64,000 bases of DNA, from NCBI GenBank assembly GCA_043811005.1, contig JBDRNO010000260.1:19579-83578 (forward strand), given 5' to 3'. Numbering within the stretch: the stretch's first letter is position 1; each line of letters opens with the position of its first letter. Made by a program: the position numbers and the translations under genes. This DNA is from Bacteroidota bacterium (GTDB lineage Bacteria; Bacteroidota; Bacteroidia; NORP154). The notes under the pieces are model-generated. The model was not told the origin of the DNA, did not search any database, and was given only the letters and a program-made list of their open reading frames with translations. This document shows positions 6,709 through 63,588 of this stretch, in pieces.

Positions 6709-6784
6709 TTGGTGAATTAAAAATATGTGACGATCAAATAATAATATTTCCATTCAGCAAATTAACCAATCAACAAATAATCAA

Positions 6785-7387: not shown

Positions 7388-7458
7388 TTAAGAACATAGC
7401 TACGCTATTTAATTAAAAAGTAAAAAGTAAAAGTGAGTAAATTCCGATACTATTAATT

Positions 7459-7815: not shown

Positions 7816-7819
7816 TAAA

Positions 7820-8338: not shown

Positions 8339-8355
8339 TAACAAATCAACAACTA

Positions 8356-8535: not shown

Positions 8536-8582
8536 TACTTAGTTGCATAAAAAGTAGTATTTATTTGTAAAAATAAAAGCAA

Positions 8583-8614
8583 ATTGCATATTTATACACA
8601 GGTTTGTACCTTTG
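8583..8614 (+). promoter_or_regulatory. Possible internal promoter ahead of rplO-secY (−33 ATTG … −7 TAccTTTG)
   Basis: TACCTTTG at 8607-8614 with ATTG 20 nt upstream. Located in the unusual 117-nt L30-L15 spacer. Confidence 0.3.
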
Positions 8615-8657
8615 CACCCCCAAATTTTCAATTTAACAACTTCAAGGAAAAGTGATT

Positions 8658-9197
8658 ATGGACTTAAGTAACCAAAAACCTGCTAAAGGGTCTATTAAAA
8701 AAAACAAAAGACTGGGCAAAGGGCAAGGATCCGGGAGAGGTGGAACTTCTACCAAAGGACACAAGGGTCAGCAGTCAAGATCTGGTTATTCCCGGAAATT
8801 CGGATTTGAGGGGGGGCAACAACCATTACAAACTAGAGTTCCCAAATTCGGCTTTAAAAACATCAACAGGAAAGAATACAGGGGAATTAACCTGGATATT
8901 TTGCAAAATCTAGTCGATAAAAAGAAAGTTGAAAAAATAGATGTTGAAACATTTATTAATAACGGTTTGGCTTCTAAAAATGACCTTATCAAAATATTGG
9001 GCAGGGGTGAGTTAAAAGCAAAATTAGAAGTAAAAGCACATGCTTTTTCCAAAACGGCAAAAGCTGCTATTGAATCATCAGGAGGAATTATTGTTATATT
9101 AGACAGATACAAATCAGGAAAAGAAGATAAAACAAAAGTAAAAAATGCTAAAAATACGGTTACAGCAGAAAAAGCAAAGAAACAACCTGTTTGTTAA
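8658..9197 (+). CDS. rplO: 50S ribosomal protein L15 (uL15) with a lysine-rich C-terminal extension
   Basis: MDLSNQKPAKGSIKKNKRLGKGQGSGRGGTS… is the uL15 glycine-rich N-terminus. Start chosen at the ATG at 8658. Confidence 0.9.
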   Translation: MDLSNQKPAKGSIKKNKRLGKGQGSGRGGTSTKGHKGQQSRSGYSRKFGFEGGQQPLQTRVPKFGFKNINRKEYRGINLDILQNLVDKKKVEKIDVETFINNGLASKNDLIKILGRGELKAKLEVKAHAFSKTAKAAIESSGGIIVILDRYKSGKEDKTKVKNAKNTVTAEKAKKQPVC

Positions 9198-9224
9198 AAC
9201 CATAAAACGTAAATCACAAATCTG

Positions 9225-10559: not shown

Positions 10560-10824
10560 TGAACATAATAGAGTAATTTTATTGAAAAACTTTAAATATC
10601 TCCCGCTAAGCATCCGCCAGCTGGCGGACATAGAACGCAATGATTTATATAAAAAGTAATATTATAGCGAACTTTGCGGGCTATGCGGGATAAAACTTTA
10701 AAATGCGAAGCATTGCTCATTAAGATAATTAATTTTATAGGTATTCGCGAATCTTACGATTTCACGATGGGTTTAAGTGCGGTATGCCCAAAGGTATGAG
10801 TAAATTCCGATACAATCAATTAGG

Positions 10825-11616
10825 ATGATTTTCTATAAGACCAACGAAGAAATTGAATTAATAAGAACTAGTTGTTTACTTGTTGCAAAAACTCATGCTG
10901 AAGTTGCAAAACTCATCCAGTCAGGTATCAGAACATCTGTTCTGGATAGTATAGCAGAGGAATTTATCAGGGATAATGGAGGGATACCAGCATTTAAAGG
11001 GTATAAGGATTTCCCAAACACTCTTTGTGTCTCGATTAATGACCAGGTAGTGCATGGAATTCCGGGAGATACTGAATTAAAAGACGGAGACATCCTGTCA
11101 GTAGATTGTGGTGTTTTATTGAACGGATTTTTTGGGGATTCAGCATATACTTATACAGTGGGTGATGTAAGCGAAGAAGTTCTTAAATTATTAAAAATCA
11201 CTAAAGAAGCTCTTTATAAGGGAATAGAAATGAGTATTGTCGGTAAACGTGTGGGCGATATCAGCTTTGCAATACAGCAACATGCTGAATCCAATGGATA
11301 TTCTGTTGTAAGGGAATTGGTCGGACATGGTCTGGGTAAAAGCCTGCACGAAAAACCAGAAGTCCCCAATTATGGTAAAAGAGGAGCAGGAGCTAAGCTT
11401 AAAGAGGGCATGGTAATAGCAATTGAGCCCATGATCAATGCAGGAAAAAAAACAGTGAAACAAGAAAATAATGGATGGACTGTAATAGCAACAGATGGAA
11501 TGCCATCTGCACATTATGAACATTCAGTTGCCATTAGAAAAGACAAAGCTGATATATTATCAACATTTCAATATATCGAAGAAGTATTAAAACATAATAA
11601 AAGCATTCTGGTATAG
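10825..11616 (+). CDS. map: type I methionine aminopeptidase
   Basis: 263-aa translation matches methionine aminopeptidase type I (pita-bread fold, metal-binding residues). Confidence 0.9.
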   Translation: MIFYKTNEEIELIRTSCLLVAKTHAEVAKLIQSGIRTSVLDSIAEEFIRDNGGIPAFKGYKDFPNTLCVSINDQVVHGIPGDTELKDGDILSVDCGVLLNGFFGDSAYTYTVGDVSEEVLKLLKITKEALYKGIEMSIVGKRVGDISFAIQQHAESNGYSVVRELVGHGLGKSLHEKPEVPNYGKRGAGAKLKEGMVIAIEPMINAGKKTVKQENNGWTVIATDGMPSAHYEHSVAIRKDKADILSTFQYIEEVLKHNKSILV

Positions 11617-11671
11617 CAAATAACAATAGTTTCAAAATTTCTGAAATTATTAAACTCTGATTGATGATAAT

Positions 11672-11911
11672 ATGGCAAAACAAGAATCAATAGTACTAGA
11701 CGGAACAATTTTAGAAGCATTATCAAACGCAATGTTTCGCGTTGAATTGGAAAATGAACATATCATTACAGCTCATATTTCAGGGAAAATGCGGATGCAC
11801 TATATTAAAATCTTACCAGGAGATAAAGTGCGACTTGAAATGCCGCCCTATGATCTGACAAAAGGAAGAATTACATACAGATATCCCCCTGGAGAGAAAA
11901 CTGATAAGTAA
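11672..11911 (+). CDS. infA: translation initiation factor IF-1
   Basis: S1-like OB fold, …[32 protein letters not shown]…. Confidence 0.92.
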
Positions 11912-12135
11912 ATTGATTTATTAAAAAGGAAATCGCATTAAATTTGAGTGAAGAAAAAATATGATAAAGTCACTGGTTTCTGGTTACTGGTGGCTGGTAG
12001 GGATTGCTTCCCTATAATATTATCGAAAAAAACAAGAAGCTAGAAACCAGTAACCAGTAGCTGTTTATTGAAAGCACAAAGAAAAGATTTTAATATAAGT
12101 TCATTTAAAACATTGAAATTCCTATACTAAATAGA

Positions 12136-12252
12136 ATGAAGGTTAAAACATCAATAAAAAAAAGAAGTGCATCCTGCAAAATCGTTAAAAGAAAAGGACG
12201 TCTTTACATTATTAATAAAAAAACTCCGCGATTTAAACAAAGACAAGGGTAA
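12136..12252 (+). CDS. rpmJ: 50S ribosomal protein L36 (bL36)
   Basis: Not in the ORF track. Manual translation gives [38 protein letters not shown], 38 aa, canonical bL36. Confidence 0.9.
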
Positions 12253-12350
12253 TAATTGATTATTGATTATTGAATATTGAGAATTGAAAAAAAACGAATA
12301 TCATTAATCAATAATCAATAAAAAATTAACAATTAACAATTAACAATTAA

Positions 12351-12731
12351 ATGGCAAGAATAGCTGGAATAGATTTACCAAAAAGCAAAAGAGGTGAAAT
12401 AGGCCTTACTTATATATATGGCATTGGAAGACACTCAGCCCAAGAAATACTTACTAAAGCAGGCGTTGATTGGAATATTAAAGTCCAGGATTGGAGCGAT
12501 GAACAACAAACTAAAATTCGCAAAATTATTGGAGATAAATATAAAGTTGAAGGGGAATTACGATCAGATATCCAGTTGAACATCAAAAGATTAAGAGATA
12601 TTGGGAGTTATAGGGGTATCAGACATCGTTTAGGCATGCCATTGAGAGGACAGAGCACAAAAAACAATGCCAGAACCCGCAAAGGAAAGAGAAAGACTGT
12701 TGCCGGGAAGAAGAAAGTACTTAAAGGTTAA
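12351..12731 (+). CDS. rpsM: 30S ribosomal protein S13 (uS13)
   Basis: [10 protein letters not shown]… is the uS13 start. Confidence 0.93.
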
Positions 12732-12747
12732 AAAAAAAATTATAAAT

Positions 12748-13131
12748 ATGGCAAAATCCCGCTCAAAAAAGAAAAAAGTTAAAATAGAAGCCATTGGACA
12801 AGCACATATACATGCTTCTTTTAATAATATTATTATTTCCATGACCAACACTGCCGGGCAGGTTATAGCATGGTCATCTGCAGGAAGAAAGGGCTTTAGA
12901 GGGTCTAAGAAAAACACACCCTATGCAGCACAAATGGCAGCTGCTGACTGTGCGAAAACCGCTTATGACCTGGGGATGAGAAAGGCAAAAATTTTCGTAA
13001 AAGGACCAGGAGGGGGCAGAGAATCGGCTATAAGAACCATTAATAATGGAGGAATAGAAGTTACTGAGATTGTTGATATTACACCACTACCCCATAATGG
13101 CTGCAGACCCCCGAACAGGAGAAGAGTTTAA
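12748..13131 (+). CDS. rpsK: 30S ribosomal protein S11 (uS11)
   Basis: Start taken at the ATG at 12748 ([12 protein letters not shown]…[20 protein letters not shown]…). The longer ORF in the track overlaps the rpsM 3' end. Confidence 0.9.
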
Positions 13132-13265
13132 TAACATAACTTTGCAAATGAACAAAAAAAGATAAATTCTAAAATGTTTTTTTAAATATTGAAATACAAA
13201 GTATTCACGAACACCTTTAAAAACAAACAATAGAGTGAGTAAATTCCAATACAATAAATTTTATT

Positions 13266-13871
13266 ATGGCGAGATACATAGGTCCTAAATCTAAAATTGC
13301 ACGTAAGTTTGGAGAGCCGATATTTGGCTTTGATAAAGCTCTGGAAAAAAAGAAATATCCTCCAGGACAACACGGCCCCAACAAAAAAAGAAAAAAACGA
13401 TCTGAATATGCTACCCAGCTACAGGAGAAACAAAAAGCAAAATACACCTATGGCATTTTGGAAAAGCAATTTGCTAATTTATTTAAAAAAGCATCCCATA
13501 AAAAAGGAATCACTGGTGAGATACTTTTACAACTGTGTGAATCTCGTTTAGATAATACAGTCTACAGATTAGGTATTGCCCCATCCCGCAGAGGTGCAAG
13601 GCAATTGGTTTCCCACTGTCACATCACCGTCAACAATCAAGTTGTCAATATCTCCTCTTTTTCCTTAAAACCCGGAGATAAAATAGCCATTAGGGAAAAA
13701 TCTAAATCGCTCGAGATTATTGCCAATTCTTTATCCATTAACACTTCTATGTATCCCTGGTTGGATTGGGATGCAGATTCTTTTACTGGAACTTTTCTTG
13801 CTGCTCCCGAAAGAGAACAAATTCCAGAAAATATTATTGAAAAACTGATCGTGGAATTATATTCAAAGTAA
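13266..13871 (+). CDS. rpsD: 30S ribosomal protein S4 (uS4)
   Basis: [17 protein letters not shown]… is the uS4 signature. Confidence 0.93.
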
Positions 13872-13876
13872 GTACA

Positions 13877-13884
13877 TAGCTTTG
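13877..13884 (+). promoter_or_regulatory. Possible −7 promoter element TAgcTTTG ahead of rpoA
   Basis: Exact match to the Bacteroidota −7 consensus TAnnTTTG. It is the last bases of, and just after, the rpsD coding region. Confidence 0.3.
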
Positions 13885-13959
13885 CAAATTAATTAATGTT
13901 TTTAAAATTCTGATACAATAAAAACACAAGAATCGTAAATCTTAAATCGTAAATCAAAA

Positions 13960-14952
13960 ATGGCAATCCTATCTTTTCAAAAACCTAACAAAGTAATAAT
14001 GTTAGAATCAAATGAAACTCATGGTAAATTTGAGTTTCGCCCTCTCGAACCAGGCTATGGCATCACTATCGGTAATGCTTTGAGGAGAATCTTGATATCT
14101 TCATTAGAAGGATATTCAATTACATCTGTTAAAATAGAAAATATTCAGCACGAATTCTCAACTATTAAAGGTGTTGTGGAAGATGTAACCGAGATTATTC
14201 TTAATCTTAAACAGGTAAGATTTAAACAGCAAATAGAGGATACTAATAATGAAAAAGTAGTAGTTAAAATTAGCGGTCAAGATAAATTTACAGCAAGCGA
14301 CCTTGGGAAATTCATTTCCGGATTTCAGGTATTAAACCCTGAATTAGTGATCTGTAATATGGAAAAATCCGTAAAATTTAACTTGGAACTTACAATTGAC
14401 AAAGGCAGGGGATATGTGCCAGCCGAAGAAAACAAACCCATAAATAGCAATATGGGCTTTATCCCCATTGATTCCACATTTACTCCAATAAAAAACGTTA
14501 ACTTTACTGTAGAAAACTATCGCGTTGAACAAAAAACTGATTACGAAAAACTTTTATTTGATATCTATACTGATGGTTCAATTCATCCTAAGGATGCTCT
14601 TACCGAAGCTGCTAAAATTTTGATCCATCACTTTCTGTTATTCTCTGATGAAAGAATAACCCTCGATTTTGAAGAAAAATCAGACACTAAAGAATTTGAT
14701 GAAACATCCCTGCACATGAGACAATTGTTATCAACCAAATTATCTGATATGGACCTTTCAGTGCGTGCATTAAACTGCTTAAAATCCGCTGTGGTTGATA
14801 CACTTGGCGATCTGGTAACTTTCAATAAAAACGATCTTCTGAAATTCAGAAACTTTGGTAAGAAATCACTGTCAGAATTAGAACAATTGGTAGAATCAAA
14901 AGGACTATCATTTGGGATGGACATCCTGAAGTATAAGTTAGATAAGAAATAA
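13960..14952 (+). CDS. rpoA: DNA-directed RNA polymerase subunit alpha
   Basis: 330 aa with N-terminal assembly domain and C-terminal domain motifs. Confidence 0.93.
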
Positions 14953-21081: not shown

Positions 21082-23562
21082 TCAACGCAAAACCACTATC
21101 TTCTTTTGAAACAGAACGCCACGGCTATCCCCGATAGATACTATATATATCCCTTCCTCCCATCCCTTTGTTTTTATCTCGAATTCCCTGGAGTGTAATT
21201 TGTTATTTTGCAAAAACTTTTCGCAAACAATCCTACCGTTAACATCAACTACCTTTAAAACTGATCCGTTCACAAATCCGGCAATACTCGTTGTTTTAAC
21301 AACAAAGCTGTCTGATGCCGGGTTGGGGTATACTGCATAGACCGGGGCAGACCGCCAGCTGGCGGGCGCTTCGGTCTCAGGAATGGCTGAATAGATCGTA
21401 TCCCCTTTCATCGCAAACACATATTCTCCAAGAACTAATGAATCAATAATAATTACTCCAAATTTATCATAAGAATTTCCTGAAATTTTTGTATAATATT
21501 CATATTCATGCCAATTTTCAGAGGTATTCATCCTGTATAGCAATACCATGCTGTCTTCTGTTAAGGAATCGGCAATTAACAGGTGATCAAAGTATGAGCT
21601 TCCACTTTCCCTGCCATCGTAGACTATTTCTGCACTTGCAGAAAAATTATTTGGCAGAATGCCATCTATTTTCCAGTACCTGTTTGGTGAGAGTTTGTAA
21701 ATTGTATTAGTTACTATTGGGTCAGGTGCTGTCCAGTTATGTTCAACCCGGATAAAAGCCGAATCTGTAATTGCATTTACAGTAATTTTAAATCGTGCAT
21801 GACTAAAATTGTCAATCCAGGTAGTATCGATCACCTTTGCTTCACTTGATATTGCATCACTGATTTTACTATTCATATTAAGTGCTGTGAAAACAGGGCT
21901 GAATGGTAATGTAAATGTAAAAGAGGAAGTTGCACCAGACATAATAATTGTTTCCGTTTGCTCGTTCCAGCTAGTATCCATAAAAGTGATCTCAAGAGGT
22001 ACATTATTGTAATATGAAGGCGCTCCTGTTAATTTTTGTTTAACATAAACTGTTACATCATAATAAATGCCATTTGGCGTTATTTGAGTTGAGTTAATTG
22101 AAAAATGAGGAAAGCCGGGGTTGAACACCCAGTTATTAAAAAAATCAGTAAGATCAATGCCAGTGATAGAGGAAAGCTGGTTTCTCAGATCATAGCTGTT
22201 TATATGAGTGAATTGGTTATTTGCCAAAAAAGTGGTTAACCCACTAAAGAACAGTGAATCTCCCAAATACCCTCTTAAGGTATGAACTACATCACCCCCT
22301 TTATCATATACATGGTCGCCATAAGTATATTCATGCGGAATGCCGGAAATAGCCCTGTAGCCATTCTCGGTGATGTGGGCAAGGTGCAGAACCTTTTCGT
22401 GGTTTCTTCTTACTTCTTGCAGATATGTATCCTTATCATACACATCTTCCCAGAATAAAAACTCCGAATAAACGGCAAATCCTTCGTTCAGCCACATGTC
22501 TTCGGCTGTTTCACAGGTTACCATATCTCCCCACCAGTGATGAGAAAGCTCGTGCGCCATGATATCCTCAGCCCACAAGCTTCCATCAGCAAAGCTTCGA
22601 TGATAGGCAATATTAGTAGCATGCTCCATAGCCCCGCCAACAACAGGAACAAGGTTATACCCAATTCTGTCAAATTGATGCGGACCATAATATGTTTCGT
22701 ATACACCTATTGCATCGGTCAGATGCAAAAAGGAATTTTTGAGTTTTGTGGTATCAGAAGGTAAAGCATTTAACATTATTGGAATGGGTCCGTTAATACC
22801 ATTATATGATATATTTACAGTGGCATAGCCGGCAACAGCCACAGAAGCAAGATAAGATGGAATTGTCTGATCCATTTTCCAATGCCATATAATAGTGCTA
22901 TTGGGATTATGGACTGTATCTTGTAATAAGCCATTACAAAAAGCGTTTTTGGAATCTTCAGTAGTAATGAAAAATTCGTGGGTAGACCGTTCTACAAAAT
23001 TGTCAAAGCAAGGAAACCACGCCCTGCCGAAATTATGAGGATTCACTTCAAATCCAACACCAATATTATAGGCATATCCCCCGCTGAAATAAAATCCTCC
23101 TCCGTAAGTAGATGTGTCTATTTGAGGTGTTCCCTCATAATAAACTTTAACACTTGCTGTATCTCCAATATTCATAATGCCTGGAAGCATTGTAACAATC
23201 AAAGTATCATCATAGGAAAAACTTGCTGATTGATTATCCACCTTTATAGAATCAATATTTAATTTTAGCAAATCCAAACTGATAGAATTAATATTATTCA
23301 TTTTAGGGACAAAGGTAATTTCACAATTGCCCTTTATCACTTCATTGGTAAAGTCGGTGATGTCTAAATTGATAGTGTAGTTGAGTATGTCAATGGTATC
23401 GCTGCGACTGTTAGCTTCTTGGGTATCATAAGCGTGACACGGCTTAGAGCCGTGCCACGCTTTGTGTCTGCAACTGTAATAATTCTCCTGCCTGGCAAAA
23501 GCGAAGACAAAAGAAAAAATTAGTGTAAGGATGGTAAATGTATATAAGAATCGTAAATGCAT
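21082..23562 (-). CDS. secreted M1-family zinc aminopeptidase with a T9SS C-terminal sorting domain
   Basis: Signal peptide. HELSHHWWG…NEGFA gluzincin motif. C-terminus …PVYAVYPNPASDSFVVK… with a beta-sandwich tail typical of the Por_Secre_tail. Confidence 0.85.
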   Translation of the reverse strand: MHLRFLYTFTILTLIFSFVFAFARQENYYSCRHKAWHGSKPCHAYDTQEANSRSDTIDILNYTINLDITDFTNEVIKGNCEITFVPKMNNINSISLDLLKLNIDSIKVDNQSASFSYDDTLIVTMLPGIMNIGDTASVKVYYEGTPQIDTSTYGGGFYFSGGYAYNIGVGFEVNPHNFGRAWFPCFDNFVERSTHEFFITTEDSKNAFCNGLLQDTVHNPNSTIIWHWKMDQTIPSYLASVAVAGYATVNISYNGINGPIPIMLNALPSDTTKLKNSFLHLTDAIGVYETYYGPHQFDRIGYNLVPVVGGAMEHATNIAYHRSFADGSLWAEDIMAHELSHHWWGDMVTCETAEDMWLNEGFAVYSEFLFWEDVYDKDTYLQEVRRNHEKVLHLAHITENGYRAISGIPHEYTYGDHVYDKGGDVVHTLRGYLGDSLFFSGLTTFLANNQFTHINSYDLRNQLSSITGIDLTDFFNNWVFNPGFPHFSINSTQITPNGIYYDVTVYVKQKLTGAPSYYNNVPLEITFMDTSWNEQTETIIMSGATSSFTFTLPFSPVFTALNMNSKISDAISSEAKVIDTTWIDNFSHARFKITVNAITDSAFIRVEHNWTAPDPIVTNTIYKLSPNRYWKIDGILPNNFSASAEIVYDGRESGSSYFDHLLIADSLTEDSMVLLYRMNTSENWHEYEYYTKISGNSYDKFGVIIIDSLVLGEYVFAMKGDTIYSAIPETEAPASWRSAPVYAVYPNPASDSFVVKTTSIAGFVNGSVLKVVDVNGRIVCEKFLQNNKLHSREFEIKTKGWEEGIYIVSIGDSRGVLFQKKIVVLR

Positions 23563-23690
23563 CGTTTTTTCAATATGTTTTATACAAAAATATCATATTT
23601 TTATAAACTTTACTATTAAAATATTGTACCGGAATTTCTAAAAAGGCAATATTTTGCCAAAATTGGTTAAGACTTGCCTTTTAAGGTCTA

Positions 23691-31963: not shown

Positions 31964-32134
31964 AAATACATTTTACCAATATGATACAAGTCGGCAGTCT
32001 TCAGTCGGCAATCAGAAGTCTACAGTAAGAATTTTTTTTGCCGACTGGGGACTGCCGACTGTAGACTTGTCTATTAACACCAACAAAATTATCGTCCGCC
32101 AGCTGGCGGATGGTAAGTTTGCTTTTTAAAGAGC

Positions 32135-34564: not shown

Positions 34565-35891
34565 TTATTTTACATGCAGCATTTTTTTCTTTAAAACCAT
34601 TCCATCACTTTTCAACACATAATAATACATTCCACTTCCTATGTTATATTCTTCGGGATCAAACCTTTCAATATACTTTCCATAATCATACCTCTGATCA
34701 TCTATCATTGTTCTTATTTCCCTTCCCATGAAGTCATAAACTTTAAGACTTATTATTGAACTTTTGTGTAATTTGAATGAGATAAAAGTCTCGTTGGTAA
34801 AAGGATTCGGGCGATTTTGATTTAGCAAGACATTAGCTGCAAATAGCTCTTCCTCAACACCGGAAATCAAATCCGGGTCAACAATAGCAGTCCAAATGCT
34901 CAGATCAGAGTCATCTAATCTTGTCCATATCGGTCTAATAACACTATCATGTGCAGTTATATTGGTATAATCTCCAAAAAACACTGATTGATCTGGCAGG
35001 AAAGGGGATTCACTAATTTTAAAATTTGTAAAGGTATATCCGCCATCGGTTGAAACAACCATATAAACATCCGTTTGATTGTTGTTATAATTTCTGCGGT
35101 CATAAAAAACAAAATATAAATATCCGTTTGTTTGATCAATTGTCATCCAGGTGAAGAACTGTTGTTTCCCGGGAGGGTCATTATTGACACGGATCGGGGC
35201 ACACCATGTATTTCCTCCGTCTGTTGATTTTGTCAGCCACACATCAGTGTCATCGGAACCGTTTCGCTGATCGGTCCAATTAATGTAAATAGATCCGCTA
35301 TATGGTCCGTTGCTAAGATCACAAACAGTTATAGGAAGACCATGTTTGCCCACCGTCAACCGATTTGGAAAATAAGATGATGGTGCTGTCATTGACGTTT
35401 GTACTGCCATAATCATCAAATTGTGTCCATGTTACATAAATGTGATTGGTATTTCTATCAACTACCACCCACTCTTTATCCTGCGCTTTGGTTCCATTTA
35501 AACCCATGTAAGTTCCGTCTGTCCATGTTGTTCCGTTATCTGATGATTTCTGACAAACAATCCTGTCTATCCAGTTTCCTGAATCAGGGTTGGAAAGATG
35601 GAAATAATAAAAATGACCAGCAGTGTCAACAAAAACAGCGGGATCGCCCCACACACCGTAAGAAGAGGATTGCACATGCTCAGTCCAGGTATATCCCCCG
35701 TCAGAAGAAACATAGTAATTATCTAAATTGGCAGCAGCTACAATTTTATCGGTATTATTGGGATCCAAGACAATGGTTGTCTCATTGGGATTATTCAAAT
35801 TACTTATAAGCACATTTGTATGTTGCGCGAAGAGTTGATTAAAAAGGAATAAGACGATTATAAAGCAAAATTTTTCCATACTTCTAATCAT
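34565..35891 (-). pseudogene. BNR-repeat (sialidase-like) T9SS cargo protein disrupted by a frameshift
   Basis: The upstream ORF (190 aa) has a signal peptide and SxDxGxTW BNR repeats. The overlapping downstream ORF (284 aa, +1 frame) continues BNR repeats and ends in a T9SS C-terminal domain (…YYYVLKSDGMVLKKKMLHVK). The frames switch near 35320-35345, with no homopolymer at the junction. Confidence 0.75.
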
Positions 35892-36125
35892 TAAATTGAT
35901 AGTATGAGAATTTTAATGTTTCGCCACGAATTTTAAAAAAAAATATATTAGTGTAAATTCGTGAATAGAATCTTATATTATTTTCATTACCCCACAACAA
36001 AGATAATAAAAAGATGGTTCACCCCGTGAAGCATTAATCATACAAAAAACAATAAGGAATATTGGCATCTTTATTGTACATCTAACTGTTAATTATTCAC
36101 ACTAGAGGCATTCAAATTAATAGTT

Positions 36126-36716
36126 ATGAAAACTTTTCTGGTAATTTTTTGTCTTATTCTTACTACAAACGCTTTTACACAAAAAAAGAAAGATATTATT
36201 AAGAAAATAGATAATTATATGAATAAAACTATTTATTATGCTATGTATGAAACAAATTATGATAGTTTAAAATCCGTAATAAAACAATATTTCATGGAAA
36301 ATGATTTCATTCAAACCAAAGAATCAGATTCTGATATGACCTTCTATACAAAAGTTCCATTTATGTGTTCAACATACAGGTATGCAAAATCATATAAATA
36401 TACAGCAATTAAACATAAAACTTGTTATAGAAAAGCTTTTGTTACAGTTTCAATTTATGATGAAAAACCGGGGAAAAACATACGTATATCGTGGTATGTT
36501 GTCAATTATCCTCCTGGTGTATGGAGGCATGGTGGGACAGGATATGTCGGATATTCATTTGATGAATTGTCATTACGTAAATATCTATATATTACCTATT
36601 ATAGGAAATTTATTCCATTTCCTGAACAGCTTGCAAACAGCATAAATGATTACAATGCTTCTCAAACGAAAGAGCAAAAAAAAATAGTAAAAAGCAAAAA
36701 TTATTATATTTACTAA
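36126..36716 (+). CDS. hypothetical secreted protein (Tyr/Lys-rich)
   Basis: Signal peptide. No recognised domain. Confidence 0.45.
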   Translation: MKTFLVIFCLILTTNAFTQKKKDIIKKIDNYMNKTIYYAMYETNYDSLKSVIKQYFMENDFIQTKESDSDMTFYTKVPFMCSTYRYAKSYKYTAIKHKTCYRKAFVTVSIYDEKPGKNIRISWYVVNYPPGVWRHGGTGYVGYSFDELSLRKYLYITYYRKFIPFPEQLANSINDYNASQTKEQKKIVKSKNYYIY

Positions 36717-36739: not shown

Positions 36740-36966
36740 TCAATAAACAACAACCTTGACTGTATTAACGCTCCGGCTATTTTGTATAGTCAAAAAGTAA
36801 ATCCCTTTATCGTGATTGCTTATATCAATTATCTTATGACCACTTCCGGCTGATAAATGATCAATATAGATTATCTGTCCAAGTATGTTTTTTATCGATA
36901 CGGAATAGTGGTCATTAATTTTATTCGAAACCTCTATAATGAATAGACCGGAGTTGGGATTTGGAT
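36740..36966 (-). other. Out-of-frame T9SS C-terminal sorting domain belonging to the M14/SprB gene
   Basis: The −1 frame immediately 3' of the heptamer repeat encodes PVYPNPNSGLFIIEVSNKINDHYSVSIKNILGQIIYIDHLSAGSGHKIIDISNHDKGIYFLTIQNSRSVNTVKVVVY* (stop at 36740-36742). Confidence 0.8.
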
Positions 36967-39900
36967 AAACAGGAAACAGGAAACAGGATCATAAATACCT
37001 ATAATATCAGCAACTTCAAAACTATCTGTTACGGTGCACCCCAAAGAATCTTCAATTACTACAATATAAGTGCCCCCAGTGATGCTGTCTAAATCTTCTG
37101 ATGTTGCACTATTTGACCATGAAAAAGTATAAGGGGGTGTTCCTCCTGTAACAGTTAAGTCAATTGCACCGTTACCTATAGAAGAAGAATCATCAGTTAC
37201 ATTTACCGAAAGTGAAATAGAACCGGGTTGGGTGATGGTTGCGCTGTCAATTGAAATACATTCCTTTGAATCTGTAACGGTTATTGTATATGTGTCTGCT
37301 ACGAGTTCTGTAACATTTTGTGTTGTTTCACCGGTTGACCATAAATAACTATAAGGCATTGTCCCTCCGCTTGTTGTGACTGTAGCGGAACCATCATTTT
37401 CTCCGAAACAACTAACATTTGAAACATCTGTCAAGAGTGATATTAAATCGGGCTGGATAACAGTTGCGCCTGTTATGGAAACACACCCGCTTGAATCAGT
37501 TACGGTAATATCATAAGTTCCTGGAGCTAAGCCGGTAATGTTTTGAGTTGTATCTCCATTAGACCAGTTATATGTAAAGGGACTTGTTCCTCCGGAAACC
37601 GTTAAGTTAATTGCACCGTCATTATCCCCATAACAGCTTACATCAGAAGTAACAGCAGTTAAAGAAGCAGCGTCAATATTGTTTATCAAAACCGTGTCTG
37701 TTTGAGTGTATCCCATGTTATCAGTAACTGAAACAAGATAAATTCCAGCTGTTAGCCCTGTAGCAGTTGCCGATGTTTGGTTTGACGGGTCATCCCATTG
37801 ATAGGAATATGGCGGTATTCCGTCTGTTACGATAACGGTTGCACTTCCGTCATTACCGGAACAGGTAGCATCTGTTGAGAATATGGATAATATCATAGGT
37901 ATGTTCTGAACGATATTAACTTCAAAATCATCAAAATAAAATCCGTCTTCCCTAAGGTACAGATCACTAACTATCCGGAATTTAATCAATATGCTTTGCC
38001 CTGCATAATCATCAAGATCTATCTCTTCCAAAACCCATGATGTTTGAAACCCGTCATAAAGGGGCTTTCCCTGGTCCTGGTTGCTGTTTCCTGTTGTAGT
38101 GTATTTGCCGCAAAGGGGTGTCCATGTGCTTCCCCCATCTGCTGATGCTAAAACCTGGGCGTAATCATATCCCAGTTCTATTTCCCATCTCGCCCAATAC
38201 GAAAGCCGGGCAGTTAAAGCATCGGTCAGATCAATGGGAGTGGATAAGGTAATGGAAGTACTTGAGCTATTCGAATAGTTACCTGAAGGGGAATCGGTTA
38301 TTGAACCGGAAGAGGTGTAGTATATAGAATTACTAACTCCCCACCCGGATGTTGATGTCCAATTCGTCATGGTATTGCAATTGTCGGTAAGGATAGTGCT
38401 GATCTGCCCGTATGTGTTAGTAATTGTGTCGGTATAGGTAAACAGCCCATTATCTACAGCGAGGACAAAACTAAATTGCTGTCCGTTTTGAATACTGGTA
38501 TCCAGTGAGAAAGAAATAGAGTCGTACATTTCCTCCAAAAGGGTTAAAAACGGATATGATTTGGGGCTTCCAACGCTTGTAATTTCAGTTCCCAGGGGTT
38601 GAATTTCAACGGTAAAGGTTGCCGGGCTGTCTAATCCCAGCCGTTGTATCTTAAAATTGAAATAATCGTTTTGCTGGTTGAAGATTGAAGGAGACAAGTC
38701 TTCTACTATTGAGTATTTGCCAACGAGGTGTGCAGCTGCTAAATTCTGCCACATATTGTCTTTGCATAAATCTATGATAGCAGAAGAAGGAGGCCAAAAG
38801 CCATAATTATCCGGTCCTGCTTCGGGTGTCATGGATATGATCTTATTTTTGGTGAATTGTTCTCCGTACATCCAATCATCAGTATCTCCGTTGGTGACAT
38901 ATCCTACTGTTTGGTCTCCTGTTCCAAAGATATAATCATTATCACGGGTCATGAGCCGGGCATAACTGAAAAAGATAGCAGAATCAGGAGTGAAGATGGA
39001 TTGCTCATAACCCCAGGGATATATCAACATATTGCTGTAAGTATGGTAGTTTAATGTTATCAGGATCTCATGGCTTTCACAAAATTCTCTTATAATATCG
39101 GTTTCCGGTTCTGAGAAAGGCCCCGTGCCTCTGTATGTCTCGTCATTTGTGTTTGGAGAAGACCCATCGTTATCATACCCCCACATATAGCCGTAGTTAC
39201 GGTTGAGGTCAACTCCGAAAGTGCCGTCACCGTTATTTCTCCTGTTTTTGCGCCACATACCGCCACCACTTGGGTTGGTGGTCCAGTTGTAGATATATCC
39301 GTCAGGGTTGATACAGGGGATGAAATACATTTCGGTGTTATCAACCAGATTGGTTACTTCATCGTCAGTGGCGTAGTTTTCCAGCAGGTAATACATATAA
39401 AATATCATCTGAGATATTGATGCGGGCTCCCTTGCGTGATGAAGTGCCGTGTAAAGCACCTCGGGTTCCGGTTCATTAATGGAGGGATTGTCTGATATTT
39501 TGACCCAGTAGATGGGTCTTCCTTCGATGGTGGTATTTGTTCCGATCTGTTGCCTAACGGTTATAATGGTTGGAAATTTGTATGCCATTGAGTCCAAATG
39601 GTCCAGCATCTCCTGGTAAGTGAAATATCCCCCCATTGATCCGAGGGTAAAGTTATCAGGAACAGGATAATCAACGCCAGAAGAGCAGCCATCTGAAAAA
39701 CGTTTTTTTTTTGAAGATTTTTTATTGGTTGGCTCTCCCTCTCCGCCATCTGGCGTAAGGTCAGGGGTTGTGCTTGTGTCGTTCTGTCTTTGGTAATGCT
39801 CTACTACGTCATCAATCAGGACATCATACTTAAAACCGTTTGATTTGATAAGCTCTATCTCTTTATATGAAAAGTCAGATATAAAGAAAACACCTTTTTT

Positions 39901-40095
39901 GACCTCACCGTGATCTACTGCTATTCCTAATTGCGACAGCTTAGCCAAGCCGTCTTTGCCAGTATATACTTTGACACGTGAGTATTTGGTTGTTTGTGAA
40001 AAACAAATACCGGTAGTAACCATTAAGGCAACTATGGTAAAAGCGATTCTTGCGAATCTTTGTAATTGATGGAGATTTAGAACAGTTGTTTTCAT
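36934..40095 (-). CDS. secreted M14 zinc carboxypeptidase with C-terminal SprB-type repeats; reading frame leaves the T9SS sorting domain at a heptanucleotide repeat
   Basis: Signal peptide. M14 motifs (…YTALHHAREPAS…, …NRN…, …HTYS…YPWGY…). Four or more roughly 75-aa Cys-containing repeats (…CYGDNDGAINLTVSGGTSPFTYNWSNGDTTQ…). The ORF stops 18 codons after (CCTGTTT)x3. Confidence 0.85.
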   Translation of the reverse strand: MKTTVLNLHQLQRFARIAFTIVALMVTTGICFSQTTKYSRVKVYTGKDGLAKLSQLGIAVDHGEVKKGVFFISDFSYKEIELIKSNGFKYDVLIDDVVEHYQRQNDTSTTPDLTPDGGEGEPTNKKSSKKKRFSDGCSSGVDYPVPDNFTLGSMGGYFTYQEMLDHLDSMAYKFPTIITVRQQIGTNTTIEGRPIYWVKISDNPSINEPEPEVLYTALHHAREPASISQMIFYMYYLLENYATDDEVTNLVDNTEMYFIPCINPDGYIYNWTTNPSGGGMWRKNRRNNGDGTFGVDLNRNYGYMWGYDNDGSSPNTNDETYRGTGPFSEPETDIIREFCESHEILITLNYHTYSNMLIYPWGYEQSIFTPDSAIFFSYARLMTRDNDYIFGTGDQTVGYVTNGDTDDWMYGEQFTKNKIISMTPEAGPDNYGFWPPSSAIIDLCKDNMWQNLAAAHLVGKYSIVEDLSPSIFNQQNDYFNFKIQRLGLDSPATFTVEIQPLGTEITSVGSPKSYPFLTLLEEMYDSISFSLDTSIQNGQQFSFVLAVDNGLFTYTDTITNTYGQISTILTDNCNTMTNWTSTSGWGVSNSIYYTSSGSITDSPSGNYSNSSSTSITLSTPIDLTDALTARLSYWARWEIELGYDYAQVLASADGGSTWTPLCGKYTTTGNSNQDQGKPLYDGFQTSWVLEEIDLDDYAGQSILIKFRIVSDLYLREDGFYFDDFEVNIVQNIPMILSIFSTDATCSGNDGSATVIVTDGIPPYSYQWDDPSNQTSATATGLTAGIYLVSVTDNMGYTQTDTVLINNIDAASLTAVTSDVSCYGDNDGAINLTVSGGTSPFTYNWSNGDTTQNITGLAPGTYDITVTDSSGCVSITGATVIQPDLISLLTDVSNVSCFGENDGSATVTTSGGTMPYSYLWSTGETTQNVTELVADTYTITVTDSKECISIDSATITQPGSISLSVNVTDDSSSIGNGAIDLTVTGGTPPYTFSWSNSATSEDLDSITGGTYIVVIEDSLGCTVTDSFEVADIIGIYDPVSCFLFIQIPTPVYSL
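36967..36987 (-). repeat. Heptanucleotide tandem repeat (CCTGTTT)x3 on the coding strand ((AAACAGG)x3 on +)
   Basis: Direct reading of 36967-36987. Confidence 0.95.
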
Positions 40096-41497: not shown

Positions 41498-42268
41498 CTA
41501 AGCTTGTGTTTTATTCTTATCTTTTTCTTCCTTCTCTTTTTCATCCTCCCCACCACTGTATTTCTTATAAAACGCATTAACTTCCTCTTCAAGTTTACCA
41601 TCTAATTGAACTTCAAGAGGTGGGGGTGAAGGATATTGGGGGGTGGTGTCTGAAATAAGCCGGGAGGGTGTTTCTTTATATTTATTCACAATATTATTTA
41701 CCTGTGATAAAAGCATTTCATATTCCTTTTCATTAAGATCTATTCCGAAATCAAGTGTTTTGCTTCCATTGACCATTCTAAAAACCCCCTTTTCTCTCAA
41801 CTCTTTCCAACTCCAGTTGTCCAGCTTATTAACATAAAGATCTGTTGAACTATTCAGGTCTAAATATTTTTCTTTAGAAGTGTAAAGCCCGTAAAATTTT
41901 TTTTCACAAAAGCGATTATCTTTAACCTCAAATAGTTCCTCTCCAAACAGATGCCACAACCATTTTCTGGTAACCATCAAGAACGCAGCAACGGTTAATG
42001 CAATAGATACAGGGAATAGGGATGGAATCTCACTCATTCTGGTAAATACCAAATAAACTAAAAATATTCCGCCAGGGATCACCGCAACCAAAAAAAAAGT
42101 AAGAATACCATTACCAAGCCAATATTCACTTGATTTAATACTTATGCTCAACTTATCATCTCCCGCCTCCTGCGGGTTTGTGGAAGATGTATCAGTTATG
42201 ATTCTGTGGGTTTTGTTTAACATATTATGACTTCCCTTTTTCACTACTTCTAAAGCCGTGGATATCAT
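41498..42268 (-). CDS. hypothetical membrane protein (2 predicted TM helices, acidic/Lys-rich C-terminus)
   Basis: Hydrophobic segments at aa ~55-100. No recognised domain. Confidence 0.45.
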   Translation of the reverse strand: MISTALEVVKKGSHNMLNKTHRIITDTSSTNPQEAGDDKLSISIKSSEYWLGNGILTFFLVAVIPGGIFLVYLVFTRMSEIPSLFPVSIALTVAAFLMVTRKWLWHLFGEELFEVKDNRFCEKKFYGLYTSKEKYLDLNSSTDLYVNKLDNWSWKELREKGVFRMVNGSKTLDFGIDLNEKEYEMLLSQVNNIVNKYKETPSRLISDTTPQYPSPPPLEVQLDGKLEEEVNAFYKKYSGGEDEKEKEEKDKNKTQA

Positions 42269-62500: not shown

Positions 62501-63161
62501 GTCTCGCTTTAAGATCTTTGGAGAGTGGTACAAACAGCTTGATGAGAAGGAGACAAATTTATATGTTTTAGGGATTGATTTTAGGAATTATTTAAAAATC
62601 CACAGGGATATTATTTGGGCAAACCGATTTGCTGCAAGCACTTCGTTTGGGGAACAGAGATTGATCTATTATCTTGGTGGAGTGGATGGATGGCTTAAGC
62701 CTGCCTATGATCAATCACTTCCTGTTGCAAATGAGCAGATTTATGCATACCAGACACTTGCAACCAATATGCGCGGCTTTTATCAGAATGTGAGAAATGG
62801 CAATAGTTTTGCATTGATCAATAGCGAACTTCGCTTGCCCGTTATTAAATACTTTTCAAACAAACCACTTAAATCCGATTTTTTGGAGAATTTTCAAATT
62901 GTTGGATTTGCTGACATTGGAACTGCCTGGACCGGAAGAAACCCTTATTCGACAGACAACTCGTTCAATACTGATGTCATTGAAAAAGGTCCAATAACAA
63001 TTATTTTAACTCATCAAAAAGAACCGATCGTTGCCGGTTATGGCTTTGGACTGAGAAGCCGGTTGTGGGGGTATTTTATAAGAGTGGATTGGGCGAGGGG
63101 AATTGAAGATGGCATTCTGTTACCTCGTATTTTTTACTGGTCTTTAAGTTTGGATTTTTAA
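59517..63161 (+). CDS. large (1,214-aa) secreted protein with TolB-like beta-propeller repeats and a C-terminal beta-barrel-like region ending in Phe
   Basis: Start taken at MRKFIIFFLLFFSL (signal peptide). PD40-like repeat (…SDGRYAAYVTNKTGKYRVWLFDLNTGKK…). C-terminal alternating hydrophobic pattern …WSLSLDF. Confidence 0.5.
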   Translation: MRKFIIFFLLFFSLHIVTDFAGMHLFAQFYNGSHQEFGKSRVQYREFLWFIYKYNKYDIYFYTGGKDIAIYTAKSADMIIEEIEDFFDFGLEDKIQFVIYNKLSDLKQSNIGFATEEQYNVGGVTHIVGSKIFLYFEGDHQKLKQQIRAGITEVLISQMMYGGNWKDMVKNSTLLSLPDWYLQGLISYVSIAWNVEIENRVRDGILSGRYKNFNRLTGDDAVYAGHSIWNFIVERYGKSLIPSILYMTKTSRNIESGFLFVLGSSLKNLTNDWLDYYYNKFYVSDKFREFPDKNSLLIKPKANRVYSQLTVNSDGRYAAYVTNKTGKYRVWLFDLNTGKKHRILSGGVKLERLNDYSYPMLAWHPSADLLSIITEKKDRILLTYYTLPSKKKHIRLFRSGREVRELHHFQKILDFSYSNDGKKFIISAVQEGRSDIFVYNTATNMYEQITNDIYDDLYPIFIHDSKEIVFSSNRVSDTIRYIHKGSFGEGGAGHTPRPPLDRVGEPAHNSPAQTIRQLADGSININTNNALSTSTGKDLFIYDYKYKSALPVNLYQTEDIKISAQTNILQKITNTPFIDEIHPVEYDDLHLSYLSIKDGIINRYLVSFDSVISHIDTIAHYRAVTTSFPITNYSRNILEHDINTKSKKYSEIIYSNGKYRMYVENILQQSDIKISESGENKIPPSDEPFHREEMNTAIEDSLIIQRFSEDNTTDLFERESEYTDITGEGKIDINNYIFEIENSPAQLRNKKPVEKSKIAGEMAREEDGISSKIKETELIPVDTTSTDNFEISDTSDLSSVSQDRTSQFFPDIFKQAKQWNYNIAFSTDYFVSQLDNSYLNETYQKFSGGGAIFTNPGLNLLFKIGISDLFEDYKIVGGVRLSGNLNSNEYFLSFENLKKRLDKQIVFHRQGFLTFQSNGTGIRVHTHDIKYVLKWPFNEIISIKGTGSLRNDRSVFLSTDYMSLQEPDIYDTWGGLKAELIFDNTINKGLNLYNGSRFKIFGEWYKQLDEKETNLYVLGIDFRNYLKIHRDIIWANRFAASTSFGEQRLIYYLGGVDGWLKPAYDQSLPVANEQIYAYQTLATNMRGFYQNVRNGNSFALINSELRLPVIKYFSNKPLKSDFLENFQIVGFADIGTAWTGRNPYSTDNSFNTDVIEKGPITIILTHQKEPIVAGYGFGLRSRLWGYFIRVDWARGIEDGILLPRIFYWSLSLDF

Positions 63162-63216
63162 AGTAAAACCGATTAACAATTATAATTCACTAATTTTACC
63201 AATTCACCAAATAATC

Positions 63217-63588
63217 ATGAGCATCGGAACATTAGTGTTATTAATAGCAATAGGTGTTATTGCAGGAATAGTAAGTGGTGTCGCAGGCGTAGGGGGAGGG
63301 ATCATAGTCGTTCCTGTTCTTGTGTTTATATTTGGTTTTAGCCAGCATAATGCCCAAGGAACCAGTATCATGTTTATGCTTCCACCCATAGGCATTCTTG
63401 CCGCTTATAATTATTATAAAGCCGGGTATGGTGACATTAAGTATGCCATACTTCTTTCAATTGCTTTTATAATTGGCGGATATTTAGGATCAAAGTTATC
63501 AATCAATCTCGCTGAAGCGACAGTAAAAAAGATATTTGGTGTGATCTTGCTGGTTGTAGCATTAAAAATGATTTTTTTTAGTAAATGA
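63217..63588 (+). CDS. TauE/SafE (TSUP) family membrane protein, half-size (4 TM)
   Basis: 123 aa, Gly-rich TM helices (…GVAGVGGGIIVVPVLV…). Confidence 0.6.
   Translation: MSIGTLVLLIAIGVIAGIVSGVAGVGGGIIVVPVLVFIFGFSQHNAQGTSIMFMLPPIGILAAYNYYKAGYGDIKYAILLSIAFIIGGYLGSKLSINLAEATVKKIFGVILLVVALKMIFFSK

What the first reader, a model, noticed from the sequence alone, without database searches (positions are those of the whole stretch)
36967..36987. Heptanucleotide repeat (CCTGTTT)x3 decouples a T9SS sorting domain from an M14-peptidase/SprB-repeat cargo protein: candidate slipped-strand phase switch
**Seen.**
- On the coding (−) strand the gene reads …GAT CCT GTT TCC TGT TTC CTG TTT ATC CAA…. It terminates 18 codons later at 36934.
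- The −1 frame directly downstream (to TGA at 36740) encodes PVYPNPNSGLFIIEV…LTIQNSRSVNTVKVVVY, a textbook T9SS C-terminal domain.
- Because the unit is 7 nt, only copy numbers n=1 or n=4 (n ≡ 1 mod 3) fuse the CTD in frame, giving …GIYDPVYPNPNSG…. The present n=3 yields a CTD-less protein.

**Established.** Non-triplet simple-sequence repeats, including heptamers, mediate reversible phase variation of surface proteins in several bacteria. T9SS cargo lacking the CTD is not exported or attached.

**Inference.** This could be a contingency locus toggling export of a large adhesin-like protease. The alternatives are a decaying gene or an assembly artefact. A second T9SS cargo gene in this window (BNR protein, 34565-35891) is also frameshifted.
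Basis: partly seen in the sequence, partly recalled or inferred. Interest (0 to 1): 0.75.

Follow-up and report, generated by a model that had tools for sequence, protein, structure and literature searches.

The report
Seven-base repeat frameshifts a secreted peptidase
A perfect three-copy 7-base repeat separates a large secreted peptidase gene from its export tag; one more copy would restore a normal protein, so it is a real slippage mutation that could revert, but nothing shows it is an evolved on/off switch.

Summary
(CCTGTTT)x3 lies at 36967-36987 on the minus strand. It sits between the last SprB repeat of a 1053-aa M14 peptidase/MAM/SprB protein and an intact, full-length T9SS type-A sorting domain (CTD) in another frame. 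Only n = 1, 4 or 7 copies fuse the two.

New result: the likely functional state is n=4, not n=1. In 21 independent SprB-to-CTD junctions the spacing is fixed. The n=4 product fits a junction profile without gaps (116 bits). The n=1 product needs a 7-residue deletion seen in no homologue (105 bits). So the present allele is most simply one unit lost from a 4-copy in-frame tract.

The evidence does not show a programmed switch:
- Three copies is the lowest number usually counted as a repeat tract. Documented heptamer switches have 13-38 copies.
- Heptamers are the commonest long repeat class in bacteria generally.
- The neighbouring T9SS cargo gene (BNR) is dead through a ~238-nt deletion, not a repeat.
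- The window comes from a single metagenome-assembled genome. No same-species sequence could be found, so copy-number variation is untestable here.

Verdict: a genuine slippage-type, potentially reversible loss-of-export allele. A contingency locus is possible but unproven.

The parts
36967..36987 (-). Perfect heptanucleotide tract (CCTGTTT)x3. It lies in the linker between the last SprB repeat and the T9SS C-terminal sorting domain. The present copy number puts the sorting domain out of frame.
   Evidence: Read directly. TRF: period 7, 3.1 copies, 100% matches. 0.003 such arrays expected per shuffled window.
36934..40095 (-). Cargo ORF as it reads now: 1053 aa, ending in the frameshifted tail SCFLFIQIPTPVYSL and TAG at 36936-36934. 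NCBI annotates it as an M14 family zinc carboxypeptidase (MFH1321618.1).
38752..39606 (-). Peptidase_M14 (zinc carboxypeptidase) domain, residues 164-448.
   Evidence: PF00246, E 5.2e-65, profile positions 2-284 of 286.
37909..38256 (-). InhA-like MAM domain, residues 614-729.
   Evidence: PF20773, E 5.1e-22.
37015..37848 (-). Four SprB repeats (approximately residues 750-1027). The last one ends ...GCTVTDSFEV, just upstream of the linker ADIIGIYD.
   Evidence: PF13573, E 4.6e-44, 4 stretches. Alignment with homologues. Coordinates are approximate, converted by hand from residue numbers.
36740..36988 (-). Orphaned T9SS type-A C-terminal sorting domain. This frame is open from 36988 (SCFLFPVYPNP...) to TGA at 36742-36740. 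It is the -1 frame relative to the cargo ORF.
   Evidence: PF18962 positions 1-75 of 75, E 1.2e-14. TIGR04183, E 2.9e-12. It scores 67.7 bits, the best of the three CTDs in the window, against a CTD profile built without it. It aligns to solved F. johnsoniae CTD chains 8glk_D and 8glj_D.

Best explanation
This is a real, short heptanucleotide repeat tract inside the coding sequence of a T9SS cargo gene. It sits in the 17-residue linker between the last SprB repeat and the C-terminal sorting domain (CTD).

The present 3-copy allele is most simply one repeat unit (7 nt) lost by replication slippage from a 4-copy, in-frame allele. That 4-copy allele would encode ...GIYDPVSCFLFPVYPNP... and a normal 1120-aa CTD-bearing protein.

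With 3 copies, translation runs into the wrong frame and stops 10 codons after the tract. The predicted product still has its signal peptide, peptidase, MAM and SprB domains but lacks the CTD. The T9SS translocon should therefore not recognise it, and it should stay or be degraded in the periplasm (inferred from established T9SS biology).

The lesion is recent, and regaining one unit could in principle reverse it. It is best regarded as a low-rate mutational ON/OFF polymorphism or an incipient pseudogene that happened at an intrinsically slippage-prone 7-nt tract. It has not been shown to be an evolved high-frequency switch.

Shown: the tract, the frames, the domain content, the intactness of both halves, and the fit of n=4 to the family geometry.
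Inferred: the direction of the last mutation, the fate of the CTD-less protein, and reversibility.
For: - Tract and frames.
- Domains.
- CTD is the family norm: all 119 other listed family members carry the CTD, and this protein is the only one without it.
- Junction spacing: the distance from the SprB 'D..GC' motif to '[YF]PNP' is 23-27 aa in 16 independent junctions. It is 25, 25, 25, 23 and 25 aa in P0002-P0006. The window gives 25 with n=4 and 18 with n=1.
- Alignment: in a MAFFT alignment, n=4 is gapless and n=1 needs a unique 7-column gap.
- Profile score: against a profile of the 21 junctions built without the window, n=4 scores 116.2 bits, n=1 105.3 and n=7 106.1.
- No other lesions: the fused query aligns to P0002 over 99% of its length, and the orphan CTD is the best-scoring CTD in the window.
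- Assembly quality: more than 30 other genes in the window have full-length Pfam coverage.
- Heptamer bias: heptamers are the dominant long repeat class in bacteria, with a proposed polymerase-slippage bias. In 874 kb of Bacteroidota loci plus the window, perfect arrays of at least 3 copies number 10 for period 7, 3 each for periods 5 and 6, and 0 for periods 8-14.
- Precedent: a low-copy intragenic repeat tract can switch reversibly but rarely, as in S. aureus icaC.
Against: - It is unexplained how a perfect 4x7 tract could have replaced 28 nt of unique linker while keeping the canonical length. That history needs several slippage steps through out-of-frame intermediates, which looks more like a cycling locus than a one-off accident.
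- Alternatively n=1 was the working allele. The minimal 75-aa CTD used in the solved structures starts only 3 residues before [FY]PNP, so a short linker might still export.
- No reads or sister genomes were available, so neither the direction of the change nor the reality of n=3 in the cells is proven.
Confidence: 0.55

Rival explanations
1. Evolved contingency locus. The tract is maintained because stochastic gain and loss of units switches export and surface attachment of this peptidase/adhesin-like protein on and off in the population. The ON state is n=4 and the OFF states are n=3 and n=5.
For: - The tract is a non-triplet perfect repeat in a surface/secreted protein gene. Its frames toggle exactly at the cargo/CTD boundary.
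- The n=4 state restores the canonical geometry, so a repeat tract co-existed with a functional gene.
- Building such a tract at constant length implies repeated passage through OFF states.
- Both halves of the gene are undecayed.
- None of the three frames of the unit contains a stop codon (sequence), so every copy number is read through.
- The permissive heptamer threshold is 3 units, and an intragenic heptamer tract is known in hmw1a.
Against: - Only 3-4 copies are present. Documented heptamer phase-variation tracts have 13-38 copies. A 3-6-copy tetranucleotide tract switches at fewer than 1 in 45,000 divisions.
- There is no second intragenic non-triplet tract in 64 kb.
- The position is at the 3' end, so the cell still makes a 1053-aa protein in the OFF state.
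- Distant homologues have no repeat.
- No population data exist.
- No paper was found linking T9SS cargo to slipped-strand switching.
Confidence: 0.15
2. Plain decay from an n=1 ancestor. The working gene had one CCTGTTT copy and a short linker. A 7-nt duplication killed it, and a second unit was added neutrally. The gene is a young pseudogene like its BNR neighbour.
For: - n=1 is in frame and leaves the minimal CTD intact.
- The adjacent BNR T9SS cargo gene is a deletion pseudogene. Two of the three type-A cargo genes in the window are therefore disrupted, while more than 30 housekeeping genes are intact.
Against: - n=1 gives a junction 7 residues shorter than all 21 comparable junctions and scores 11 bits lower than n=4.
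- It needs two steps, the first a de novo duplication, against one slippage step from n=4.
- There is no further decay in 3.4 kb.
Confidence: 0.15
3. Assembly or consensus artefact. The organism really has 4 copies (or 1), and the metagenome assembly or polishing dropped or added units.
For: - The sequence is a single metagenome-assembled genome contig with no independent copy.
- Repeat tracts are places where consensus callers can err.
- The BNR deletion next door could likewise be a collapse between BNR repeats.
Against: - A 21-28-nt tract is shorter than the k-mers and reads of any current assembler (general knowledge, not tested).
- More than 30 other genes, including all ribosomal protein genes, show no frameshift.
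- A 7-nt error is not the usual homopolymer-type error.
Confidence: 0.1
4. Translational recoding. A programmed -1 ribosomal frameshift on or near the tract makes some full-length CTD-bearing protein from the 3-copy allele.
For: The CTD is in the -1 frame. Both frames are open over a 55-nt overlap (36934-36988).
Against: - No X_XXY_YYZ slippery heptamer lies in the zero frame of the overlap.
- There is no inverted repeat or stem-loop nearby.
- There is no homopolymer run for transcriptional slippage.
- Homologues encode the fusion in one frame.
Confidence: 0.02

Closest known systems
Intragenic heptanucleotide repeat tract in Haemophilus influenzae hmw1a, (AATTTTG)14, and the heptamer tracts in the hmw1A/hmw2A promoters (PMC2651432)
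   Same: It is a 7-nt unit tandem repeat in or at a large surface-protein gene. In strain PittAA the tract lies deep inside the ORF and a frameshift is attributed to its length variation.
   Different: Those tracts have 13-38 copies and vary between strains. This one has 3 copies, variation is unobserved, it lies at the 3' domain boundary, and the organism is an uncultured environmental Bacteroidota member.
Staphylococcus aureus icaC TTTA tract (PMC4117637)
   Same: It is a low-copy (3-6 units) non-triplet repeat inside a coding region. Expansion and contraction are RecA-independent, reversible and rare, and they truncate the C-terminal part of the protein.
   Different: The unit is 4 nt. Reversibility and strain polymorphism were shown experimentally. 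The truncation destroys a membrane domain rather than detaching a secretion signal.
Intergenic heptamer arrays of bacteria (cyanobacterial heptanucleotide repeats, TAACTGA repeats of Beggiatoaceae/Cyanobacteria/some Bacteroidetes, GGGAATC of Xanthomonas; PMC4679880, PMC4692102)
   Same: The unit length is the same, and the proposed origin (a polymerase slippage bias for 7-nt units) is the same. The window also holds such intergenic arrays, including one ending 1 nt before the rpsM start codon.
   Different: Those arrays are intergenic or lie just upstream of start codons. This one is 1036 codons into an ORF and shifts its frame.
Engineered CTD truncations of T9SS cargo (P. gingivalis gingipains, F. 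johnsoniae cargo)
   Same: The predicted product is cargo with a signal peptide but no CTD. From my own knowledge of the T9SS literature, such cargo is not exported and accumulates in the periplasm. PMC12618676 (abstract) states that substrates need a Sec signal and a CTD recognised by the T9SS.
   Different: Those are laboratory constructs. Here the truncation is a natural allele produced by a repeat tract.

Membership tests
SSR-mediated (slipped-strand) phase-variable / contingency locus | Uninterrupted tandem repeat of a non-triplet unit within the ORF or promoter | tested here: met
   (CCTGTTT)x3, 100% matches, inside the ORF.
SSR-mediated (slipped-strand) phase-variable / contingency locus | A change of copy number switches between a full-length and a truncated product | tested here: met
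   In-silico constructs with n = 0-7: n = 1, 4 and 7 give the CTD fusion, and all others truncate within 10-17 codons.
SSR-mediated (slipped-strand) phase-variable / contingency locus | Copy number observed to vary reversibly among cells, isolates or samples | not testable with these tools
   No same-species sequence was found. Protein clusters have one member. Genome contigs best hit is 46% identity. Two metagenome DNA-pattern scans gave 0 hits. The junction/CTD protein search gave 0 hits. The contig is not on record.
SSR-mediated (slipped-strand) phase-variable / contingency locus | Tract long enough to be hypermutable | tested here: inconclusive
   Three units equals the permissive detection threshold for heptamers. 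Characterised heptamer tracts have 13-38 units. A 3-6-unit tetranucleotide tract switches at fewer than 1 in 45,000 divisions.
SSR-mediated (slipped-strand) phase-variable / contingency locus | The repeat is conserved, with different lengths, at the same site in related genes or genomes | tested here: not met
   The five closest homologues (51-54% identity) and 16 other SprB-to-CTD junctions have non-repetitive linkers. Caveat: no close relative exists to compare.
T9SS type-A cargo protein | C-terminal Por_Secre_tail / TIGR04183 sorting domain in frame at the extreme C-terminus | tested here: not met
   The domain is present and full length but in the -1 frame, downstream of the stop codon. 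It is in frame only in the n = 1, 4 and 7 constructs. All 119 other listed family members have it in frame.
T9SS type-A cargo protein | N-terminal Sec signal peptide | not tested
   By eye only: MKTTVLNLHQLQRFARIAFTIVALMVTTGICFSQ has a basic n-region, a hydrophobic core and ends in FSQ, like P0003 and P0004. No signal-peptide predictor was available.
T9SS type-A cargo protein | The organism has a T9SS | not testable with these tools
   No T9SS machinery gene was identified among the window ORFs scanned. An intact CTD-bearing M1 peptidase at 21085-23592 suggests a working system.
M14 zinc carboxypeptidase | Full-length Peptidase_M14 domain above the curated cut-off, with the HxxE zinc motif | tested here: met
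   PF00246, 220 bits against a cut-off of 21.6, profile positions 2-284 of 286. ALHHAREP is present.
Programmed -1 ribosomal frameshift site | Slippery X_XXY_YYZ heptamer in the zero frame within the overlap, followed by a stimulatory structure | tested here: not met
   No slippery heptamer in the last 60 nt of the ORF. No inverted repeat near the tract.

The most novel reading that the evidence does not exclude
The tract is a genuine contingency locus of a new type. A short heptanucleotide repeat sits exactly at the passenger/CTD boundary. It lets an environmental Bacteroidota population stochastically switch a large peptidase/adhesin-like protein between T9SS-exported (n=4) and periplasm-retained (n=3 or 5) states. 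The perfect 4x7 tract at canonical linker length would then be the footprint of repeated OFF/ON cycling.
Probability: 0.13. Interest if true: 0.65.

Novelty: new member of a known kind. Interest (0 to 1): 0.35.

Why it matters
Phase variation in Bacteroidota is known mainly from invertible promoters. I found no report of repeat-tract slippage controlling T9SS cargo.

If reads showed mixed copy numbers, this would be a simple, sequence-recognisable way of uncoupling a protein from its secretion signal. It would also give a search rule for similar loci: a non-triplet repeat just upstream of an out-of-frame CTD.

As it stands, the practical lessons are narrower:
- Automatic annotation called this gene a normal carboxypeptidase and missed the orphaned sorting domain.
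- Junction geometry can tell which in-frame copy number is the functional one.
- Two of the three T9SS cargo genes in this stretch are disrupted while housekeeping genes are intact. That hints at turnover of secreted proteins in this lineage.

Tried and rejected
1. Looking for the same species elsewhere, to see other copy numbers. All attempts failed:
- Exact-protein contig look-ups for P0001 and P0121 are not on record.
- Both protein clusters have one member.
- A protein scan of 185,579 species genomes gave a best hit of 46% identity, all paralogue-like SprB/CTD proteins.
- A metagenome scan with both flanks and a 7-35-nt gap gave 0 hits.
- A metagenome scan with a degenerate back-translation of PVYPNPNSGLFIIEV gave 0 hits.
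- A protein search with the n=4 junction plus CTD gave 0 hits.

2. Programmed ribosomal frameshift or transcriptional slippage. Rejected: no slippery heptamer, no nearby structure, no homopolymer.

3. Noisy assembly as a general cause. Rejected: more than 30 genes have full-length profile coverage.

4. The BNR gene as a second repeat-driven frameshift. Rejected: it is a deletion of about 79 codons with no repeat at the junction.

5. Terminator and promoter scan around the gene end. Uninformative, with counts at shuffle level.

6. Rfam and tRNA scans of the window found nothing.

7. Structure prediction of the n=1 and n=4 fusions was considered but not run.
Full report
**The observation**

The minus strand reads ...GGT ATT TAT GAT CCT GTT TCC TGT TTC CTG TTT ATC CAA.... 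Three perfect CCTGTTT units occupy 36987-36967. Tandem Repeats Finder gives period 7, 3.1 copies, 100% matches. Dinucleotide-preserving shuffles of the window yield 0.003 such arrays per window, so the tract comes from duplication or slippage, not chance.

The ORF 36934-40095(-) is 1053 aa. It contains:
- a full Peptidase_M14 domain (E 5e-65),
- an InhA-like MAM domain (E 5e-22),
- four SprB repeats (E 5e-44).

It stops at TAG 36936-36934, ten codons after the tract.

The frame that reads the last unit as CCT GTT T.. stays open to TGA at 36740. It encodes a complete T9SS type-A sorting domain (PF18962 positions 1-75 of 75, E 1e-14; TIGR04183, E 3e-12). Rebuilding the gene with 0-7 units shows that only 1, 4 and 7 units join cargo and CTD.

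**Where the sequence comes from, and what can be compared**

The protein is identical to NCBI MFH1321618.1, 'MAG: M14 family zinc carboxypeptidase [Bacteroidota bacterium]'. It is known from one 100,385-bp contig and forms a cluster of one. The next-best relatives are only 51-54% identical. All 119 other listed family members carry the CTD in frame.

I could not find the species anywhere else:
- Contig look-ups failed.
- A scan of one genome per species gave at best 46% identity.
- Two metagenome DNA-pattern scans gave nothing. The other was a degenerate back-translation of the start of the CTD.
- A protein search with the n=4 junction plus CTD found nothing.

**Is the assembly trustworthy?**

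More than thirty other genes in the window match their Pfam profiles end to end without frame breaks. They include ribosomal proteins, RpoA, enolase, citrate synthase, UbiD, RmuC, RNase E/G, RF-1, fumarase and a Mur ligase. This is not a noisy long-read consensus. A local error at the tract cannot be excluded, but nothing points to one.

**Which in-frame state is the functional one?**

This is the main new result. In proteins where an SprB repeat is followed by a type-A CTD, the spacing between the SprB 'D..GC' motif and the CTD '[YF]PNP' motif is nearly fixed:
- 23-27 residues in 16 independent junctions taken from the fetched Bacteroidota loci. The search window allowed 12-45 residues.
- 25, 25, 25, 23 and 25 residues in the five closest M14 homologues.
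- The window gives 18 with one unit and 25 with four units.

In a MAFFT alignment the four-unit product (…GIYDPVSCFLFPVYPNP…) aligns without a gap. The one-unit product needs a 7-column gap that no other sequence has.

A profile HMM was built from the 21 junctions with the window left out. It scores n=4 at 116.2 bits with no indel, n=1 at 105.3 bits with a 7-residue deletion, and n=7 at 106.1 bits with a 7-residue insertion.

The four-unit allele is also one slippage step from the present one. The one-unit allele is two steps away, and the first of those steps is a de novo duplication. I conclude, at roughly 75-80% confidence, that the immediate ancestor and working form had four units. The present allele is then a single-unit contraction.

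A caveat: the CTD constructs in solved F. johnsoniae translocon complexes start only three residues before [FY]PNP. A one-unit protein might therefore still be exported.

**Age of the lesion**

Apart from the tract, neither half shows damage:
- The fused query aligns to a 1089-aa homologue over 99% of its length.
- The zinc motif HHARE is present.
- The orphan CTD scores higher (67.7 bits) than the two other CTDs in the window against a CTD profile that excludes it.

An unused 3.4-kb reading frame in a 36% G+C genome would not stay open for long. The shift is therefore recent, or it is repeatedly reversed.

**Evidence against a programmed switch**

- Tract length. Three units is only the permissive threshold used to list heptamer repeat tracts in Haemophilus influenzae. 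The heptamer tracts known to act there have 13-38 units, and the intragenic one in hmw1a has 14 (PMC2651432). The closest low-copy precedent is the TTTA tract of S. aureus icaC. It is reversible and RecA-independent, but it switches at fewer than one in 45,000 divisions and is seen mainly because of selection (PMC4117637).
- Heptamers are the default long repeat of bacteria. They are the most abundant class in most genomes, and a polymerase-slippage bias for 7-nt units has been proposed (PMC4679880, PMC4692102). My own count agrees. In 874 kb of Bacteroidota loci plus the window, perfect arrays of three or more units number ten for period 7, three each for periods 5 and 6, and none for periods 8-14. 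All the others are intergenic or at gene edges. A 7-nt tract therefore needs no adaptive explanation.
- No second such tract. The window holds no other intragenic non-triplet tract.
- Position. The tract lies at the 3' end, so an OFF cell still pays for a 1053-aa protein.
- Homologues. Distant homologues have ordinary, non-repetitive linkers.
- The BNR neighbour is simply broken. A 504-aa homologue (64% identity) aligns to the N-terminal piece through residue 167 and to the C-terminal piece from residue 247. The two alignments abut at about 35340-35344 in different frames. That is an out-of-frame deletion of about 79 codons with no repeat at the junction.

Of the three type-A cargo genes in the window, one (an M1 peptidase, 21085-23592) is intact and two are disrupted. 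Cargo genes are being lost here by ordinary mutation.

**Evidence that keeps the switch idea alive**

If four units was a working allele, then a perfect 28-nt heptamer tract sat inside a functional linker of exactly canonical length. Such a tract cannot arise in one step from unique sequence. Its history must include several gains, and matching losses of unique sequence, through out-of-frame intermediates. That is what a locus cycling between OFF and ON would leave behind. The unit has no stop codon in any of its three frames, so any copy number is read through. I cannot explain this history otherwise, and I list it as evidence against my own preferred reading.

**Other mechanisms**

A -1 ribosomal frameshift would restore the CTD frame, but the evidence is against it:
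- There is no X_XXY_YYZ site in the 55-nt overlap.
- There is no nearby inverted repeat.
- There is no homopolymer for transcriptional slippage.

Terminator and promoter scans were at background level. Rfam and tRNA scans of the window were empty.

**Verdict**

The tract is a genuine slippage-type frameshift allele of a T9SS cargo gene. It is most probably one unit short of a functional four-unit allele, so it is potentially reversible. It is a candidate contingency locus, but a weak one on present evidence. My estimates:
- Recent low-rate slippage allele without demonstrated adaptive switching: about 0.55.
- Evolved switch: about 0.15.
- Decay from a one-unit ancestor: about 0.15.
- Assembly error: about 0.1.
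- Recoding: about 0.02.

In kind it is a new member of a known class (repeat-associated frameshift loci). The specific idea of uncoupling a T9SS sorting domain through a repeat tract appears unreported and would be worth a read-level check.

Noticed in passing
window 34565-35912 (-), junction about 35340-35344: The BNR/sialidase-like T9SS cargo gene is split by an out-of-frame internal deletion of about 79 codons (residues 168-246 of the 504-aa homologue P0122 are missing), not by a simple frameshift. NCBI annotates only the C-terminal piece, as a 262-aa 'T9SS type A sorting domain-containing protein' (MFH1321615.1).
   Followed up: yes
window 12324-12350 (+): A second perfect heptamer array, (AATTAAC)x3.9, ends 1 nt before the ATG of rpsM (ribosomal protein S13). 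The placement resembles the TAACTGA-type heptamer repeats reported just upstream of start codons in Beggiatoaceae, Cyanobacteria and a few Bacteroidetes (PMC4679880).
   Followed up: partly
window 11969-12058, 12253-12335, 31986-32070: Three intergenic inverted repeats (potential hairpins) have arms that are themselves tandem heptamers: CTGGTTN x4 against AACCAGT x2; ATTGATT x3.7 against ATCAATA x3; GTCGGCA-containing units against TGCCGAC x3.3. They lie between the ORF ending at 11911 (not scanned; presumably infA) and rpmJ, between rpmJ and rpsM, and next to the FeoB gene. Function unknown; they were not folded.
   Followed up: partly
loci L017, L030, L032 (9004-9138), L046, L064 (6666-6700) and the window: Across 874 kb of Bacteroidota loci, perfect arrays of 3 or more copies number 8 for period 7, against 3 for period 5, 3 for period 6 and 0 for periods 8-14. 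Seven of the eight are in Saprospiraceae MAG loci (L030, L032, L046, L064), and all eight are intergenic or at gene edges. L032 has three adjacent arrays of two alternating units (ACCCGAT and GAAACCT).
   Followed up: partly
window 63148-63585 (+): A TauE/SafE-like ORF of 146 aa covers only positions 1-110 of the 237-position profile. It is followed immediately by an M20 peptidase ORF. It may be another truncated gene or a half-size family member.
   Followed up: no
window 36126-36716 (+) and 41498-42268 (-): Two ORFs flanking the region (196 aa and 256 aa) have no Pfam family. The first converges on the M14 gene, and its stop codon is only 23 nt from the CTD stop codon. That fits 36740 being the natural end of the M14 gene.
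   Followed up: no
window 1-64000: No tRNA gene and no Rfam family at gathering threshold in 64 kb, even though the window holds a long ribosomal-protein gene cluster (about 67-14950). No ribosomal-protein leader was recognised.
   Followed up: no
window 36934-40095 (-) / NCBI MFH1321618.1: The public annotation presents the CTD-less ORF as an ordinary complete M14 carboxypeptidase and leaves the 77-codon sorting domain unannotated. Orphan out-of-frame CTDs of this kind would be invisible in protein databases.
   Followed up: yes
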